Sequence record: MZ501074
DNA: 64,000 bases
DNA from: Escherichia phage HildyBeyeler
Direction: 5' to 3' (one strand)
Within the stretch, counting starts at the first letter, position 1. Every line of letters starts with the position of its first letter. Under the pieces are notes generated by a model. That model ran no database searches and was not told the origin of the DNA. It saw nothing but the letters and a program-made list of their open reading frames with translations. Below, one piece after another: positions 2,789-29,957 of the stretch. A program made the translations under genes and the position numbers.

Positions 2789-3295
2789 TTACACCTTAAG
2801 TTGTTGTAGGGCTTTACACATTTCAAGATCTGGACTAAATTCTAGCATATAGCTAACAGCCATTAAATCTTGAAGGTTTATTCCAGTTCTACCGTTGACT
2901 ATAACCGTTGGATACTGGTACATCATAGCACCAGCGTCATCCAGCACACACCAATGTTTGAGCTTATGCTTTTCAACGAAGCGAAGAACAGAATTACCCC
3001 TAGATAGCCCACCACCAGTAAAATCCGTTGTACCAAGAAAACGATCAATAAGATCTAATCTGGTCATAATCTGAACGTTCTCCATCTCATTCCTGACAGA
3101 GAACCATGAAGATACCCCAACAATCATTATTGGAGAAGGACGAATAAAGTCCTGAAAAGCCTTGAGAAGCGGCTTAAAAACCCAGTCACTTCCAAAGAAA
3201 ATCTTTTCATCATCAGGTGCATGATGGTGGGAGATGCTCGAATTAAGCACCCCATCGATGTCTAGAAAAATAATTGGAGTATTACTTATTTCCAT
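2789..3295 (-). CDS. HAD-superfamily phosphatase-like protein
   Basis: N-terminal IIFLDIDGVLN (DxDG HAD motif I). Confidence 0.5.
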   Translation of the reverse strand: MEISNTPIIFLDIDGVLNSSISHHHAPDDEKIFFGSDWVFKPLLKAFQDFIRPSPIMIVGVSSWFSVRNEMENVQIMTRLDLIDRFLGTTDFTGGGLSRGNSVLRFVEKHKLKHWCVLDDAGAMMYQYPTVIVNGRTGINLQDLMAVSYMLEFSPDLEMCKALQQLKV

Positions 3296-3464
3296 TTCTG
3301 TTCCTTTCTAAGAACGTATCATACTCAACCGTATCAACATATATGACACCATAGTCATCGGATTTATAGTCCATTTCCCATAGCTCACATCGATAGCACC
3401 AACTACCATCCGCCCATACAAATATATCATCGGGATGTGTATACACAGATTTAACTATGGACAT
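3282..3464 (-). CDS. hypothetical small protein
   Basis: ORF track; overlaps neighbours by a few nt. Confidence 0.4.
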   Translation of the reverse strand: MSIVKSVYTHPDDIFVWADGSWCYRCELWEMDYKSDDYGVIYVDTVEYDTFLERNRNGNK

Positions 3465-4279
3465 ATTTGTTTTCCCGGCATATAAGGTCTACCCTCTAGA
3501 TGAGCTTCTACACGAGCAATAAAACCAGGATCACTGAAAGCATCTACTGCACCTTTACTCCAGTAAGGAATACCACGATCTTCCAGTTGGTACATATCAC
3601 TACGAGTCATACCTTGATAGCCTGGTTTCGACGCTAGGGCACTATCATAGTAGTTAACTACCATAAGTTTCGCAGCAGTCCGATTAAGAACAGGGAATAG
3701 TTCCCAGTAGAAGTTAATTACTTGGTTAGAGCAACCAACTACAACGATCATATCTTGACTGGTAATACCATCAAAAATATTGTACATTTCTGCGTACGCT
3801 GGAGCATGCTCACCAAAAAAGATTACATTAGGTTTAACCCATTTATAATCATCTGGGTCAATAGAGTTATACCCAACATCAATAACCCGTTTATTACTAC
3901 TATTGTAGCTATCAGCTACAACAACCTCTTTTAAATATCCGTGAATGTGCAGAATATCACTATGTGGAACGCCAGCACGCTCAATAAGGTCATCAACGTT
4001 GGTAGTCAAGTTTACTACTTGACCCGGATATTTCTTATACCATTCACCAATACGCAAGTGTGCAAGATTAGGTTCAACAGTTTCTAACTCTTCACGCCGC
4101 TTGTTGTAAAACATATGGGTTTTATGATAAAAGTTACCACGAAAGGCGTGAATATTACATACTTCTTCTAGATCATAATCATCCCACAGTGCTTTACCAC
4201 TAGCAGTATCGGTACGAAAAGCTCGTACACCACTTTCAACGCTCAAACCTGCACCGCTAATAATAATTAATCTACGCAC
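3455..4279 (-). CDS. Sir2-family NAD-dependent protein (sirtuin-like)
   Basis: GAGLSVESG near N-terminus, TTNVD, HG and VVVGCS motifs in sirtuin order. Confidence 0.65.
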   Translation of the reverse strand: MRRLIIISGAGLSVESGVRAFRTDTASGKALWDDYDLEEVCNIHAFRGNFYHKTHMFYNKRREELETVEPNLAHLRIGEWYKKYPGQVVNLTTNVDDLIERAGVPHSDILHIHGYLKEVVVADSYNSSNKRVIDVGYNSIDPDDYKWVKPNVIFFGEHAPAYAEMYNIFDGITSQDMIVVVGCSNQVINFYWELFPVLNRTAAKLMVVNYYDSALASKPGYQGMTRSDMYQLEDRGIPYWSKGAVDAFSDPGFIARVEAHLEGRPYMPGKQICP

Positions 4280-20638: not shown

Positions 20639-20861
20639 ATATTAATAAATTAGAGAACAGCGGGCCGATTACGCTGAGTGCAGAATCCAAACCGGAGTGC
20701 ATTGAATAGAGTCGGTGGGTTAGTTGTAAAACTAGTACACAGTGGGCGGCAATCCCGGTTAGTGGCTAGAACGTGTAAAATGGGGCGTCTGAAACCTCTC
20801 CCCTAAACTCTTCTCTAGTTTATAAATAGTGGGGTGTGGAAATCACTTATGTAGTAACACT

Positions 20862-20933
20862 GCCGATCTAGTATAAACGGTATTATCAAGCCGTAACTGG
20901 TGGAAGATGTAGGTTCGAATCCTACGATCGGTA
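20862..20933 (+). ncRNA. tRNA-like element (acceptor plus canonical T-arm, poor anticodon arm)
   Basis: GCCGATC/GATCGGT acceptor pairing and GTAGG-TTCGAAT-CCTAC T-arm. Confidence 0.3.
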
Positions 20934-21434
20934 AGAACTGGATAACTGGTGCTTTTAACGTAAAAGCTTCCGAGGTTAGTTGCGCACTGCCTAAACCACG
21001 CGGTAGTTGGTTCCAGACTAACCAACCAGTCTGCTGAATAGTTTTATTACGATTTAACTATGTCCAGGCTAAAGAAGAACTTTAGAAGGTATTCTAGGTG
21101 GTGAAGTTTTTCCTCCATATCGGAGTAGTTTTTCAAGCTACCAACAAAGTGGGAAATGCTGACATGAGAGATGTCACTAATGGTGCACAATAGCACAGGT
21201 AATTCGCGATAACTCCTGTTGAGTAGCAGCAAAAGGCGGGAAGTCATGACCCCAAGCCTAACCGAGTCCTCAATATACCGCAGGACATAACCACTAAGTC
21301 ACCCTGACTTAAACTGGAAAATAATAGACGTTACTGTATTTTGTCTTGAAATACTTAATGAGTGAGACTTATGACTCTCCCGGTATCGTCTGTATTTTTA
21401 AGAGTTTTTACGAGAGTTCTTAAAAATACTTAAA

Positions 21435-25372: not shown

Positions 25373-25645
25373 ATGCATCCTGAAAACTTCTTTATTTACT
25401 GCGCGGATAAGTCGCTGAAACGTAGAATTAACAAAGTCTATCATTATCGTGCTAGTCAACAGCCTTATGTATACGCTTTTGACGGTGATCACATTCCACT
25501 AGAACAATTATCTTGTGATTACATGATATTGAAGAACTTTGACGAGACGAAGATCTCAAGCGTTTATAATCGACAGAATCCATTAACGTGGAAATATAAG
25601 AAGAAAAAGAAAGGCATCAAATTCTTAAAAAATATAGTTGCTTAG
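25373..25645 (+). CDS. hypothetical protein
   Basis: ATG 25373 with AAGGAG RBS (track start 25358 is TTG). Confidence 0.4.
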   Translation: MHPENFFIYCADKSLKRRINKVYHYRASQQPYVYAFDGDHIPLEQLSCDYMILKNFDETKISSVYNRQNPLTWKYKKKKKGIKFLKNIVA

Positions 25646-25666
25646 TTTCCAAAAGTTCTGTATAAT
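25638..25666 (+). promoter_or_regulatory. sigma70-type promoter
   Basis: TTGCTT-17-TATAAT. Confidence 0.6.
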
Positions 25667-25714
25667 AATTACATAAATTGAACTGGAGAAGCAACATGAT
25701 AGAACAAGATAAAT

Positions 25715-25790
25715 CGACCGTTGGCTGAATGGCTTAGGCGAAGGATTGCAAATCCTTTTTATGTGAGTTCAAATCTCATGCGGTCGTCCA
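25715..25790 (+). tRNA. tRNA-Cys (anticodon GCA)
   Basis: CGACCGT/GCGGTCG acceptor, anticodon stem AAGGA/TCCTT, loop TTGCAAA, CCA. Confidence 0.7.
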
Positions 25791-25792
25791 AT

Positions 25793-25933
25793 TTGCTGAA
25801 AGAATTGTTAAATCAATTCAGGCACGCGTAGGAACACTGTCTCCGTAATTGAAAGATGAGGCACGGTTTGGAGAGGTATGCCGCTACACGCTACGGTGCT
25901 AACTCCGTCTAGGTGAAAATCCTAGTCAGCAAT
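25793..25933 (+). ncRNA. 141-nt tRNA-like structured RNA candidate
   Basis: Perfect 7-bp terminal pairing TTGCTGA/TCAGCAA, 6-bp hairpin GAATTG/CAATTC, T-arm-like CTAGG-TGAAAAT-CCTAG. Confidence 0.35.
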
Positions 25934-25942
25934 GTAAATTTA

Positions 25943-26028
25943 GGGTCGTTGGCTGAACGGTTTAAGCGCCGGACTGTTAATCCGTATCCGCAAGGATAAA
26001 GTAGGTTCAACTCCTACACGGCCCGCCA
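25943..26028 (+). tRNA. class II tRNA, anticodon loop reads GTT (identity uncertain)
   Basis: GGGTCGT/ACGGCCC acceptor, variable-arm hairpin TATCC-GCAA-GGATA, T-loop TTCAACT, CCA. Confidence 0.5.
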
Positions 26029-26130
26029 AATTCTGTGTAGAGTTAAGTAAACCGGTAGCCAACCAGCTATCATTGCTGACATCGAATTCAGCCACAGATA
26101 CCATTTTCATTAATAACTAAGGAAACAAGC

Positions 26131-27033: not shown

Positions 27034-27155
27034 CAAAATCTCAGTGCAGAACACGGAGCTAGCAATTCGGAAATGCTGACTCATGATAAGCTGCCTATGT
27101 ACTTGCGAAGCGGTCGTGTCCAAGACTCGGACTCTTGCACTGAAAACAATCAAAC

Positions 27156-27276
27156 ATTCTAGCGTGGTTGATGGGGAAACCAGCTTGGCTAGGGCAGAAG
27201 CTCGTTCGATTCGAGTGAAAGAATGGTTCTCGTAAGTCCGCACAAGTGATAACAGGTTCGAGTCCTGTCTAGAATG
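27156..27276 (+). ncRNA. 121-nt tRNA-like structured RNA candidate
   Basis: Perfect 7-bp terminal pairing ATTCTAG/CTAGAAT, T-arm ACAGG-TTCGAGT-CCTGT, internal TTCGATT loop. Confidence 0.35.
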
Positions 27277-27425
27277 ACACTATAAAGTTTACTTATTATG
27301 TAGGTTCCGATAGACCGGCGGGTCTATTCTGGCATTTAAGAGAGGTCTCGCAAACTTCTTTGTCAGCCGTGGGGTTGATAGCCCCCAGGTGGCCTACACA
27401 ATAAGTAAATTTATGAAAAATGTAG

Positions 27426-28264: not shown

Positions 28265-28597
28265 TATATAAATTGATGCGAAAATAGCTGCCTAGATACC
28301 AGGTGTATGACGTCTACACTAGCAGAGCTACCGAAAAAGAGATCCCCAGGATAAACGTCGTAGCAAAATTAGTCTGGTATCCATCAATTTAGTTCACTAA
28401 GGTATTAGCTCGACCTAGGACTGGCTGCCAAAAAGCACGATCCCTACGATTCGGGAGAAGTTCTAGATTAGTCCACTAGATTCAGCGGCAACTGAATAGT
28501 GTATTGGGTTTGCGAGATGACGCAGTTCCTTCCGCTCGAAGCGAAGGTGCTGTAGTTACGCCGAGCTAATAGCCTTAGTAAACTAGAAGGAATATCT
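28265..28597 (+). ncRNA. candidate promoter-driven non-coding RNA region
   Basis: ORF-free (longest ORF 15 codons), several imperfect hairpins, no tRNA T-loop. Confidence 0.35.
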
Positions 28598-29393: not shown

Positions 29394-29484
29394 GGAAGAG
29401 CAAATCGAATTGGCGACGAAAACCGCTTGGAAAGTGGCTGACCGGTAAAACGGCTTGAGAGTTCAAATCTCTCCTCTTCCGCCA
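29394..29484 (+). tRNA. tRNA-Ser (anticodon GGA), class II
   Basis: Perfect GGAAGAG/CTCTTCC acceptor, loop TTGGAAA, long variable arm, CCA. Confidence 0.65.
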
Positions 29485-29496
29485 AACAATTTATAT

Positions 29497-29591
29497 GGTA
29501 GGTCAATCCAACGGCTGGCGCTGGACTCCGACTTGAAATCGGTTGATCGTAGTGATACGGTGTAAGGGTTCGATCCCCTTACCTACCTCCA
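29497..29591 (+). tRNA. tRNA-Ser (anticodon TGA), class II
   Basis: Perfect GGTAGGT/ACCTACC acceptor, loop CTTGAAA, long variable arm, CCA. Confidence 0.65.
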
Positions 29592-29957
29592 AATCTTGAA
29601 GTATGCCGGAATCGGTAGACGGGGCTGCCTAAAAGGTTTATAGGGAACATCCACTCCCTGCAACATACCTCATAAAGCGGCTGAGATAAATGGTCTATCT
29701 CGTGAAGGTTCAAGTCCTTCTGCTTCTTGATACATCTATGGCTCAAAGTGTAACGGTGCTATTTGATGCTCTTGGTAAGACTTCCCCGACATGCGTTCGG
29801 GAGTAAGCTGCTAAGACTAGAGTAGAAGAGTTTCTGAGAGCCGCCACAATTGAAAATTCGTACTCGTCTTGAGCTGCGTGCAATAGGAGATAACTTGATT
29901 AGTATTCTAGAACATGCTAATTGAGGATGGTTTCGCTAACCCTGCGAGTTTTCAATT

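What the first reader, a model, noticed from the sequence alone, without database searches (positions are those of the whole stretch)
25793..25933. 141-nt tRNA-like element with perfect 7-bp terminal pairing but no canonical cloverleaf
Directly after tRNA-Cys, TTGCTGA (25793) pairs perfectly with TCAGCAA (25926). The element has a 6-bp hairpin GAATTG/CAATTC and a T-arm-like CTAGG-TGAAAAT-CCTAG. It is too long for a tRNA and too short for a group I intron, so it may be a stable small RNA of unknown function.
Basis: partly seen in the sequence, partly recalled or inferred. Interest (0 to 1): 0.55.

Follow-up and report, generated by a model that had tools for sequence, protein, structure and literature searches.

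The report
Conserved tRNA-like RNA in T5-like phages
Between two tRNA genes of this T5-like phage lies an unannotated 141-base gene for a folded, tRNA-shaped RNA that has a three-branched domain where the anticodon loop should be; it is a new member of the decades-old, still unexplained class of tRNA-like "stable RNAs" of phages T5 and T4.

Summary

The window is a T5-like phage, 100% identical over a 551-bp stretch around the element to Salmonella phage Tennessee. The element sits in the tRNA operon, 2 nt after tRNA-Cys and 9 nt before tRNA-Asn.

Relatives show a real structured RNA. It occurs in about 211 T5-like records and in about 7 Klebsiella Mydovirus (Vequintavirinae) records, always 2-5 nt after the end of a tRNA gene. 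Across four lineages, 98% of cells pair and 15 of 38 pairs carry compensatory double changes; 0 of 500 shuffles reach this.

The consensus fold is a cloverleaf-like four-way junction: a 7-bp acceptor-like stem, a D-like hairpin, a 5-bp T-like arm, and a 10-bp helix at the anticodon-stem position. That helix ends in a three-way junction holding an invariant 19-mer.

It is not a tRNA, tmRNA or any Rfam family, has no encoded CCA, and has no sequence similarity to T5 RNA1/2/3 or T4 rnaC. T5 and BF23 carry a T5orf172 ORF at this site instead, which plausibly explains why it was never described.

Most likely it is an RNase P-processed tRNA-mimic RNA. Its function is unknown, and I regard it as a new member of a known kind.

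The parts
25618..25692 (+). Promoter P14b homologue that would drive the tRNA-Cys / element / tRNA-Asn transcript.
   Evidence: 74 of 75 bases identical to the promoter P14b annotated in the phage 5 tRNA-region record AJ604531. The simple sigma-70 consensus scan did not call it. No + strand terminator-like site lies between it and tRNA-Asn.
25715..25790 (+). tRNA-Cys(GCA) with an encoded CCA; the upstream neighbour.
   Evidence: ARAGORN and Rfam tRNA at 48.5 bits. The element starts 2 nt after its CCA.
25793..25799 (+). P1 5' strand, TTGCTGA (acceptor-like stem, 7 bp).
   Evidence: Pairs with 25926-25932. Four of the 7 pairs show compensatory double changes: G-C to A-U in the Enterobacter, Yersinia and Klebsiella T5-likes, and three pairs changed in Mydovirus, where the stem is TTGTCTA/TAGACAA.
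25802..25819 (+). P2, a D-like hairpin: GAATTG, TTAAAT, CAATTC. It follows a 2-nt AA linker.
   Evidence: Five of 6 pairs have double changes and 100% of cells are paired. The loop lacks the G18-G19 of tRNAs.
25821..25831 (+). P3 5' strand, GGCAC-G-CGTAG; the helix at the anticodon-stem position, with G25826 bulged.
   Evidence: Pairs with 25891-25900. Two outer pairs covary (C-G to G-C, A-U to U-G in Mydovirus), while the inner 5 bp are invariant. It is predicted in the MFE of the Mydovirus and KPP2018 copies and by RNAalifold on two alignments. Its pair probability in the window copy alone is about 0.3.
25838..25863 (+). Px hairpin inside P3: TGTCTC, a 14-nt loop, GAGGCA.
   Evidence: GCCAC/GTGGC in the Enterobacter, Yersinia and Klebsiella copies and TCCCC/GGGGA in Mydovirus. 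Three pairs have double changes, and G-U to A-U and G-U to G-C switches occur within the Tequintavirus-type copies.
25864..25883 (+). Py hairpin: CGGT, a 12-nt purine-rich loop TTGGAGAGGTAT, GCCG.
   Evidence: The stem is invariant in all 13 sequences, so there is no covariation evidence for or against it. The loop varies at four positions, five counting KPP2018. The helix is therefore inferred.
25878..25896 (+). Invariant 19-mer ATGCCGCTACACGCTACGG, which contains the direct repeat CGCTAC-A-CGCTAC. It spans the Py 3' strand, junction J (CTACACG, 25884-25890) and the start of the P3 3' strand.
   Evidence: Identical in every T5-like and Mydovirus copy recovered.
25891..25900 (+). P3 3' strand, CTACG-GTGCT.
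   Evidence: See the P3 5' strand.
25901..25908 (+). 8-nt variable-region-like linker, AACTCCGT.
   Evidence: Unpaired in the consensus. A possible 4-bp pseudoknot with the Py loop (GGAG:CTCC) has one compensatory change and one broken pair, which is inconclusive.
25909..25925 (+). P4, a T-like arm: CTAGG, TGAAAAT, CCTAG.
   Evidence: A 5-bp stem and 7-nt loop flush with P1. There is one compensatory change, A-U to U-A, in Mydovirus. The loop keeps U54, A58 and the G53-C61 pair but has G55 and A56 in place of Psi55 and C56.
25926..25933 (+). P1 3' strand TCAGCAA plus the discriminator-like T25933; no CCA follows (the next bases are GTAAATTTA).
   Evidence: Twenty-two of the 23 tRNA genes listed from this window (21 ARAGORN plus 2 Rfam-only) encode CCA; the exception is the doubtful 20861-20934 call. 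The element does not encode CCA in any lineage.
25943..26028 (+). tRNA-Asn(GTT), 86 nt; the downstream neighbour. RNase P cleavage at its 5' end would leave a 9-nt trailer on the element.
   Evidence: ARAGORN and Rfam at 54.7 bits.

Best explanation
25793-25933 (+) is a gene for a tRNA-shaped non-coding RNA of about 141 nt.

Production (inferred). It is co-transcribed with tRNA-Cys and tRNA-Asn from the early promoter P14b and cut out by the host tRNA-processing machinery. RNase P would cut at the 5' end of the acceptor-like stem. The 3' end would form after RNase P or RNase E cleavage of the AU-rich trailer, followed by exonucleolytic trimming.

Structure (shown by covariation). The top half is tRNA-like: a 7-bp acceptor-like stem stacked on a 5-bp T-like arm, plus a D-like hairpin. 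These are the features RNase P recognises in a tRNA, and such a compact fold would be expected to favour stability. The anticodon loop is replaced by a conserved three-way junction (P3, Px, Py and an invariant 19-mer). I take this to be the functional surface.

Function (inferred, not shown). It cannot decode, because it has no anticodon loop. It is unlikely to be aminoacylated, because it has no encoded CCA and no recognisable identity set. My best guess is that it acts in trans as a tRNA mimic that binds a host or phage factor. The most attractive candidate is a tRNA-directed defence or processing protein, since this part of T5-like genomes is an experimentally defined anti-defence island. 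It is an accessory, exchangeable module, not an essential gene.
For: Genomic setting
- The window is a T5-like phage. The element lies in the + strand tRNA array and no ORF of 40 aa or more crosses it.
- In five different array contexts it always begins 2-5 nt after the end of a tRNA gene: after Cys in the window, after a tRNA in Enterobacter KKP_3711, after Asn in Yersinia phiR2-01 and Klebsiella Roth37, and between two Ser genes in Mydovirus.

Structure and selection
- 98% of cells are paired and 15 of 38 pairs have double changes; 0 of 500 shuffles reach this, and slid controls give 25-45% paired.
- RNAalifold gives the same fold on the unfitted alignment A4.
- G-U pairs in P1, P3, Px and Py would become A-C mismatches in a transcript of the other strand, so the + strand is the RNA strand.
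- Within the Tequintavirus-type copies there are 14 polymorphic sites: 8 unpaired and 6 in stems. Five of the 6 stem changes keep the pair.
- The element is 79% identical between the window and Mydovirus, more than any of 14 shared isoacceptor tRNAs (54-78%). It is also the best BLAST hit between the two tRNA regions.

Resemblance to known phage RNAs
- The architecture matches the annotated tRNA-like stable RNAs of T5. The MFE folds of RNA2 and RNA1 also show an acceptor stem, a D-like hairpin, a long expanded arm and a T arm.
- An acceptor-plus-T-arm scan of the window recovers the element and RNA2 together, besides two missed tRNA-Ser genes and a few overlaps with tRNA genes.

Context
- The tRNA region of the T5-like phage SP15, which carries the element (H67), is an 'anti-defence island' whose tRNA-Tyr counters retron Ec78 (10.1101/2023.03.15.532788).
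Against: - Expression, ends and stability were not measured. RNase P processing is inferred from shape and position only.
- Only four independent lineages exist, so covariation rests on few events. Py and the inner half of P3 are invariant and therefore unproven.
- In the window copy alone the cloverleaf costs 2.4 kcal/mol more than the MFE, and P3 has a pair probability of about 0.3.
- The T loop lacks Psi55 and C56 and the D loop lacks GG, so a tRNA-like elbow is not assured.
- The element is dispensable. T5, BF23 and about 84 records carry a T5orf172 ORF in its place, and NR01 keeps only its 3' 85 nt.
- Nothing links it to any defence system. In the SP15 fragment screen, only the fragments with tRNA-Tyr, ORF71/72 and Rad gave phenotypes.
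Confidence: 0.6

Rival explanations
1. A decaying tRNA pseudogene: a former tRNA gene whose anticodon loop was disrupted by an insertion and which is drifting without function.
For: - tRNA-like frame, but loss of the tRNA hallmarks U8, G18-G19, U33, Psi55-C56 and CCA.
- It is dispensable and replaced in T5 and BF23. A truncated relic exists in NR01.
- Neither ARAGORN nor Rfam calls it.
Against: - Compensatory changes maintain every testable helix, including Px inside the 'insert'.
- A 19-mer is invariant across two phage families.
- It is more conserved than any shared tRNA.
- Polymorphisms avoid breaking pairs.
- About 211 T5-like copies are 95-100% identical in length, with no frame decay.
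Confidence: 0.08
2. An intron-containing tRNA gene. The 63-70 nt between the two strands of the 5-bp outer P3 helix would be spliced out to give a functional tRNA, for example a CUA suppressor or a GUA tRNA.
For: - With its threshold lowered to 90%, ARAGORN -i reports the window copy as a 78-nt tRNA(CUA) with a 63-nt intron.
- The outer P3 helix is 5 bp, like an anticodon stem.
Against: - The proposed loop CGCUACG lacks U33 and a purine at position 37. For the Mydovirus copy ARAGORN returns a different, incompatible solution.
- 63 nt is far below the size of a group I intron, and no Rfam intron or ribozyme family matches even at E up to 10.
- There is no bulge-helix-bulge motif, only a single bulged G.
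- There is no CCA, unlike every co-resident bona fide tRNA.
- No splicing system for such inserts is known in enterobacteria (established knowledge).
Confidence: 0.03
3. A cis-acting processing or spacer element. The tRNA-like fold would exist only to direct RNase P or RNase E cuts that separate neighbouring tRNAs or stabilise the polycistronic precursor, and the excised RNA would have no function of its own.
For: - It is always embedded flush in tRNA arrays.
- tRNA-like punctuation elements are known in other systems, for example plant mitochondrial t-elements (PMC1920247, listed; title and abstract only).
Against: - Its neighbours are themselves tRNAs with their own RNase P sites. Elsewhere in the same window adjacent tRNAs are separated by only 5-8 nt, so no extra punctuation is needed.
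- Strong conservation of the internal three-way junction and the 19-mer has no role in punctuation.
- The downstream context differs between lineages: a tRNA, or an ORF about 100 nt away.
Confidence: 0.12
4. A translated mini-ORF or tmRNA-like hybrid. The purine-rich Py loop (GGAGAGG) followed by ATG at 25878 would start a 12-codon frame ending at the TGA in the T-like loop.
For: The frame is open in both lineages: MPLHATVLTPSR* in the window and MPLHATGLTLSW* in Mydovirus (read from the sequences).
Against: - The Shine-Dalgarno to ATG spacing is only 1-4 nt.
- The ATG and the following CCG lie within the Py hairpin: TG is in the loop next to the stem and G25880 to G25883 form its 3' strand.
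- Of four codon differences, three are non-synonymous, and at least two of them lie in stems whose partner bases changed too (GTG to GGC in P3, AGG to TGG in P4).
- A 12-codon open frame is expected by chance about 56% of the time (my arithmetic).
- ARAGORN's tmRNA search is negative and there is no G3:U70 pair.
Confidence: 0.02
5. A DNA-level signal, such as a homing-endonuclease target or recombination site, rather than an RNA.
For: - The site is a swap point. A T5orf172/MUG113 (GIY-YIG-like) ORF occupies it in T5 and BF23, and T5 retains only a short stretch of about 10 nt resembling the element's first bases.
- The invariant 19-mer could be a recognition site.
Against: - A DNA site does not explain compensatory changes in five helices or the strand-specific G-U pairs.
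- The same element is conserved in Mydovirus; whether Mydovirus has a T5orf172 gene nearby was not examined.
Confidence: 0.05

Closest known systems
Phage T5, BF23 and phage 5 'tRNA-like RNAs with unknown functions': RNA1 (144 nt), RNA2 (125 nt) and RNA3 (73 nt), annotated in NC_005859, NC_042564 and AJ604531.
   Same: - Same genome region, strand and operon type; flush with tRNA genes.
- An acceptor-like terminal stem plus a T arm, with a long expanded arm in place of a normal anticodon arm.
- Function unknown.
- Homologues of all of them coexist with the element in this window.
   Different: - No detectable sequence similarity, and model R1 finds nothing in T5.
- T5 RNA2 has a canonical TTCGAAT T loop (TTCGAGT in the window's homologue), whereas the element has TGAAAAT.
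- The element is absent from T5 and BF23, so, unlike the RNAs those records annotate as stable, it was never seen as a labelled RNA.
- No shared match longer than 18 nt was found for RNA1, RNA2 or the other T5 stable RNAs in Mydovirus.
Phage T4 species 1 RNA (rnaC, 139 nt) and species 2 RNA (rnaD).
   Same: - A small RNA of about 140 nt encoded at the end of a phage tRNA cluster, with a tRNA-like T arm and terminal pairing.
- Function still unknown (PMC9697503).
   Different: - Not alignable and not hit by R1.
- rnaC has a canonical GGTTCGAATCC T arm.
- Different phage family.
Canonical tRNA (Rfam RF00005).
   Same: - A 7-bp acceptor stem, a 2-nt linker, a D-position hairpin, a 1-nt linker, a 5-bp helix at the anticodon-stem position, a variable region, and a 5-bp T stem with a 7-nt loop stacked on the acceptor stem.
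- G53-C61 and U54...A58 are retained.
   Different: - About 63 extra nt replace the anticodon loop.
- No U8, G18-G19, U33, Psi55-C56 or encoded CCA; the D stem is 6 bp.
- No score with RF00005 or ARAGORN.
tmRNA tRNA-like domain; YrlA and other bacterial Y-RNA tRNA-like modules; mascRNA.
   Same: An acceptor/T-arm tRNA mimic combined with a non-tRNA functional domain. tmRNA and mascRNA are processed by RNase P (PMC3985003, abstract; established knowledge).
   Different: - No Rfam match to any of these families at E up to 10.
- No G3:U70 pair and no tag ORF context.
- No Ro-binding helix.

Membership tests
tRNA (RF00005) | Recognised by the tRNA covariance model or ARAGORN. | tested here: not met
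   No call at default settings. No RF00005 hit even at E up to 10 in four lineages.
tRNA (RF00005) | 7-bp acceptor stem coaxial with a 5-bp T stem and a 7-nt T loop. | tested here: met
   P1 is 25793-25799 with 25926-25932. P4 is 25909-25925, with no gap before P1. Both covary.
tRNA (RF00005) | 7-nt anticodon loop with U33 and a purine at position 37. | tested here: not met
   The loop is replaced by about 70 nt (25826-25895). The only ARAGORN 'intron' solution has G33 and C37.
tRNA (RF00005) | Conserved tertiary nucleotides U8, G18-G19 and T54-Psi55-C56. | tested here: not met
   A at position 8, D loop TTAAAT, T loop TGAAAAT. These are conserved in relatives.
tRNA (RF00005) | 3' CCA, encoded here by all co-resident bona fide tRNAs. 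| tested here: not met
   Twenty-two of the 23 tRNA genes listed from the window end in CCA. The element is followed by GTA, ATA or ACA in every lineage.
T5-type tRNA-like stable RNAs (RNA1/RNA2/RNA3) | Encoded in the T5-type tRNA gene region, co-oriented and flush with tRNA genes. | tested here: met
T5-type tRNA-like stable RNAs (RNA1/RNA2/RNA3) | tRNA-like terminal stem and T arm with an enlarged body. | tested here: met
   MFE folds of RNA1 and RNA2 compared with the element's consensus. A shared acceptor-plus-T-arm scan also recovers them.
T5-type tRNA-like stable RNAs (RNA1/RNA2/RNA3) | Sequence homology to RNA1, RNA2 or RNA3. | tested here: not met
   blastn-short finds only chance matches of 7-10 nt. 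R1 has no hit in the T5 region L005.
T5-type tRNA-like stable RNAs (RNA1/RNA2/RNA3) | Accumulates as a discrete stable RNA in infected cells. | not testable with these tools
   There are no expression data. T5 and BF23, the phages whose stable RNAs were characterised, lack the element.
T4 species 1 RNA (rnaC) | Sequence or structure homology to rnaC. | tested here: not met
   The alignment is meaningless, with 49% mean column identity across four sequences. R1 has no hit in L010.
tmRNA | tRNA-Ala-like domain (G3:U70) plus a tag reading frame, detectable by ARAGORN or Rfam. | tested here: not met
   ARAGORN's tmRNA mode is negative, including with a relaxed threshold. Pair 3:70 is G-C or A-U. 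There is no Rfam tmRNA hit.
tRNA gene with a group I intron | An intron of about 200 nt or more with the group I catalytic core. | tested here: not met
   The insert is 63-70 nt and there is no Rfam intron hit at E up to 10.

The most novel reading that the evidence does not exclude
The RNA is a tRNA-mimic counter-defence factor. Host tRNA-processing enzymes would mature and stabilise it through its tRNA-like top half. The conserved three-way-junction domain would then trap or mis-direct a tRNA-directed host immune nuclease or sensor. Candidates are anticodon nucleases of the PrrC/RloC type, PARIS AriB, or retron/Septu PtuAB-type enzymes. This would make it an RNA-only member of the T5-family anti-defence island that has spread between siphoviruses (Markadamsvirinae) and myoviruses (Mydovirus).
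Probability: 0.15. Interest if true: 0.8.

Novelty: new member of a known kind. Interest (0 to 1): 0.5.

Why it matters
tRNA-like 'stable RNAs' were found in phage tRNA clusters decades ago (T4 species 1 and 2; T5 RNA1, RNA2 and RNA3) and still have no known function.

This element adds a family with unusually good comparative evidence.
- It is shared by two unrelated phage families.
- It is more conserved than their tRNAs.
- It has clear covariation.
- It is naturally present or absent among near-identical T5-like phages: carriers such as SP15, IrisVonRoten and phage 5, against T5 and BF23 with a T5orf172 ORF at the site.

That natural knock-out and knock-in series, inside a region already shown to be an anti-defence island, makes function directly testable.

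On the practical side, the element is missing from Rfam. In none of the 60 GenBank records sampled is it annotated as an RNA gene; a few of them place hypothetical-protein CDSs under the match, and Klebsiella phage BIS47 annotates a 222-nt 'DNA ligase' CDS across it.

Tried and rejected
Searches for known families
- Rfam at gathering threshold and at E up to 10, on the window and on four other lineages: only tRNAs.
- ARAGORN for tRNA, tmRNA and intron modes: nothing at default settings. The relaxed 'intron' call is inconsistent between lineages.

Homology to known phage RNAs
- T5 RNA1, 2, 3, I, III, IV and 2H, and T4 rnaC and rnaD: none.

Wider relatives
- Four IMG/VR pattern scans, one metagenome scan and one GTDB genome scan.
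- These found only T5-like and Mydovirus copies plus chance or coding matches, which I inspected and discarded.

Host homologue or long antisense target
- E. coli genomes and PLSDB plasmids: no match.

Paralogues
- None in the window.

Structure alternatives
- A pseudoknot between the Py loop and the variable region has one compensatory and one broken pair, so it is inconclusive.
- A systematic scan for other conserved helices found nothing with covariation beyond P1-P4 and Px.

Other ideas rejected by reading the sequence
- A hammerhead-like reading of GATGAG...: the core is absent.
- An 8-nt complementarity to 5S rRNA, recalled from memory and judged chance level by my own arithmetic; no tool was run on this.
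- Interdigitated double T-loops (UGAAA in both the Px and P4 loops): noted, but geometrically doubtful and untestable here.

Literature
- Five full-text searches found no description of this RNA.
Full report
**1. What is at the coordinates**

The window is a T5-like phage. A 551-bp stretch around the finding is 100% identical to Salmonella phage Tennessee and about 96% identical to many Tequintavirus and Epseptimavirus genomes.

Bases 20.8-32 kb carry a + strand array of 21 ARAGORN tRNAs plus two more found only by Rfam.

- TTGCTGA at 25793-25799 pairs with TCAGCAA at 25926-25932.
- GAATTG pairs with CAATTC at 25802-25819.
- CTAGG-TGAAAAT-CCTAG is at 25909-25925, directly abutting the 3' strand of the terminal stem.

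The element starts 2 nt after the CCA of tRNA-Cys and ends 9 nt before tRNA-Asn. No ORF of 40 aa or more crosses it, and no + strand terminator-like site lies between the two tRNAs.

On its own the sequence is only marginally special. The MFE z-score is -2.0 and 7 of 200 shuffles fold as well. By my arithmetic, a 7-bp inverted repeat at this spacing is common by chance in 64 kb.

**2. Relatives**

BLAST finds the element in 218 phage records.
- About 211 are T5-like Markadamsvirinae, at 95-100% identity in Salmonella and Escherichia phages.
- The Enterobacter, Yersinia and Klebsiella T5-likes are at 88-90%.
- Unexpectedly, a handful of Klebsiella myoviruses of the genus Mydovirus (Vequintavirinae) carry it at about 75% identity, between tRNA-Ser(GCU) and tRNA-Ser(UGA).

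In each of five different array contexts the element begins 2-5 nt after the end of a tRNA gene.

It is 79% identical between the window and Mydovirus, more than any of 14 shared isoacceptor tRNAs (54-78%). It is also the strongest BLAST match between the two tRNA regions.

I found nothing beyond these two groups.
- Four IMG/VR pattern scans, one metagenome scan and one GTDB genome scan gave only the same groups or chance and coding matches (inspected).
- E. coli genomes and plasmids gave no match.

**3. Structure**

The alignments show compensatory changes in every helix that varies. I numbered the element so that position p is window base 25792+p, and built covariance model R1 on a proposed structure.

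On the resulting 13-sequence alignment:
- 98% of cells form standard pairs, against 25-45% when partners are slid by 1-3 columns.
- 15 of 38 pairs have changes on both sides.
- 0 of 500 shuffles reach the observed covariation.

By helix, the pairs with double changes are:

| Helix | Pairs with double changes |
|---|---|
| P1 | 4 of 7 |
| P2 | 5 of 6 |
| P3 | 2 of 10 (the inner five pairs are invariant) |
| Px | 3 of 6 |
| Py | 0 of 4 (invariant) |
| P4 | 1 of 5 |

That alignment was fitted to the model, so I checked independently. RNAalifold on the sequence-only MAFFT alignment A4 predicts the same architecture. The single-sequence MFEs of the Mydovirus and KPP2018 copies also contain P3. In the window copy alone the cloverleaf is 2.4 kcal/mol above the MFE.

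Polymorphism within the Tequintavirus-type copies gives 14 variable sites. Eight are unpaired and six are in stems, and five of the six stem changes keep the pair through G-U to A-U or G-U to G-C switches. Several G-U pairs make the fold specific to the + strand.

The fold is a cloverleaf-like four-way junction. In order:
- a 7-bp acceptor-like stem;
- a 2-nt linker, AA;
- a 6-bp D-like hairpin;
- one nucleotide;
- a 10-bp helix (5 + 5 bp with a bulged G) at the anticodon-stem position;
- an 8-nt variable region;
- a 5-bp T-like arm with a 7-nt loop;
- one discriminator-like U.

The 10-bp helix does not close a 7-nt loop. It opens into a three-way junction made of hairpin Px, hairpin Py with a purine-rich loop, and the junction CUACACG. 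This region holds a 19-mer, ATGCCGCTACACGCTACGG, that is invariant in all copies.

A possible pseudoknot between the Py loop and the variable region has one compensatory and one broken pair, so it remains open.

**4. What it is not**

- Not a tRNA. There is no RF00005 or ARAGORN call. It lacks U8, G18-G19, U33 and Psi55-C56. It has no encoded CCA, although 22 of the 23 tRNA genes listed from the window, all but the doubtful 20861-20934 call, encode one.
- Not an intron-containing tRNA. ARAGORN at a lowered threshold proposes a CUA tRNA with a 63-nt intron for the window copy. The proposed loop has G33 and C37, and the Mydovirus copy yields an incompatible solution. The insert is also far too short for a group I intron.
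- Not a tmRNA.
- Not any Rfam family at E up to 10.
- Not homologous to T5 RNA1, 2, 3, I, III, IV or 2H, or to T4 rnaC and rnaD.
- Very unlikely to be protein-coding. A 12-codon frame from the ATG in the 19-mer is open in both lineages. Its Shine-Dalgarno spacing is only 1-4 nt, it starts inside a hairpin, and most of its differences are non-synonymous changes, at least two of them in stems whose partner bases changed too.

**5. Why nobody annotated it**

The expert-annotated tRNA regions of T5 and BF23 list eight 'stable RNAs with unknown functions', including the tRNA-like RNA1, RNA2 and RNA3. Both phages carry ORF T5.069 (trn 2.8), the founding T5orf172/MUG113 GIY-YIG-like protein, between tRNA-Cys and tRNA-Asn. 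About 84 records share that arrangement, and T5 keeps only a short stretch of about 10 nt resembling the element's first bases.

The sister record for Salmonella phage 5 does contain the element, but the interval is left blank. None of the 60 sampled records annotates an RNA gene there. A few place a hypothetical-protein CDS under the match, and BIS47 annotates a 222-nt 'DNA ligase' CDS across it. NR01 retains only the 3' 85 nt.

The element is therefore an accessory, exchangeable module. The two classically studied phages happen to lack it.

**6. How it most likely works**

Shown here: a conserved, strand-specific, tRNA-shaped fold embedded in a tRNA operon. It lies downstream of a promoter that is 74/75 identical to the annotated P14b.

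Inferred from established tRNA-processing knowledge: RNase P recognises the coaxial acceptor/T-arm helix and would cut at 25792/25793. The AU-rich 3' trailer would be removed after RNase P or RNase E cleavage and exonuclease trimming. This would release an RNA of about 141 nt, stable like T5 RNA2 and RNA1, whose predicted folds have the same layout.

It has no anticodon loop, no encoded CCA and no recognisable identity set. I therefore expect a trans-acting tRNA mimic whose conserved three-way junction and 19-mer bind a partner.

The T5-family tRNA region is an experimentally defined anti-defence island, and SP15, the phage used in that work, carries the element. A tRNA-directed defence or processing factor is thus the most attractive target. 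This step is speculation, and I put it at about 0.15.

The closest known relatives in kind, T4 RNAC and RNAD, were still called RNAs 'of yet unknown functions' in 2022 (PMC9697503).

**7. Verdict**

- It is a new, un-catalogued family within a known kind: phage tRNA-like stable RNAs.
- Interest is moderate. The comparative support is strong, natural presence/absence variants exist, and the anti-defence context makes an old open question testable. There is, however, no evidence yet for what the RNA does.

Noticed in passing
window 29394-29484 and 29501-29591 (+): Two class-II tRNA-Ser genes (anticodons GGA and TGA, counterparts of T5 Ser2 and Ser1) are missed by ARAGORN at default settings and by Rfam at gathering threshold. 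They appear only in an acceptor-plus-T-arm scan and with ARAGORN -ps90.
   Followed up: partly
window 26031-26103, 27155-27279, 27298-27400, 28403-28574, 29595-29739, 29740-29846, 29851-29956 (+): These are homologues, at 85-100% identity, of all seven small T5 'stable RNAs with unknown functions': RNA3, RNA2, RNAIV, RNA2H, RNA1, RNAI and RNAIII. None has an Rfam family.
   Followed up: partly
window 25943-26028 (+); L003 2944-3028: tRNA-Asn(GTT) is 86 nt with a long extra arm (class-II-like). T5 has a 78-nt tRNA-Asn, while the Mydovirus tRNA-Asn is also 85 nt.
   Followed up: no
window 20861-20934 (+): ARAGORN calls a 'tRNA-Ser(ACT)' here, at only 39 bits with Rfam. It lacks CCA and lies where the T5 and phage 5 records annotate the 720-785-nt 'RNAX' upstream of tRNA-Arg. 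RNAX may therefore contain a tRNA-like module.
   Followed up: no
L005 6007-6525 (T5.069) and L048 6749-7267 (BF23 trn 2.8): In T5 and BF23 the slot between tRNA-Cys and tRNA-Asn holds the founding T5orf172/MUG113 (GIY-YIG-like) ORF instead of the RNA element. It overlaps the start of a different tRNA-Asn allele. This looks like a nuclease-associated cassette swap.
   Followed up: partly
L020 924-1100 (Salmonella phage NR01, minus strand of the locus): Only the 3' 85 nt of the element survive. The 5' part and tRNA-Cys are replaced by a promoter-like TTGCCT...TATAAT and a 12-codon ORF with a good ribosome-binding site that runs into the relic.
   Followed up: partly
L004 2538-2759 (Klebsiella phage BIS47) and L008 292-435 (Roth37): Public records place short CDSs across or into the element, including a 222-nt 'DNA ligase' on the opposite strand. 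These are almost certainly annotation artefacts.
   Followed up: no
L003 inter-tRNA gaps such as 335-539, 2250-2410 and 3113-3698: The Mydovirus tRNA array has several ORF-free gaps of 115-590 nt. ARAGORN reports an odd tRNA with a 2-base anticodon at 1593-1662. More unannotated tRNA-like RNAs may lie there.
   Followed up: no
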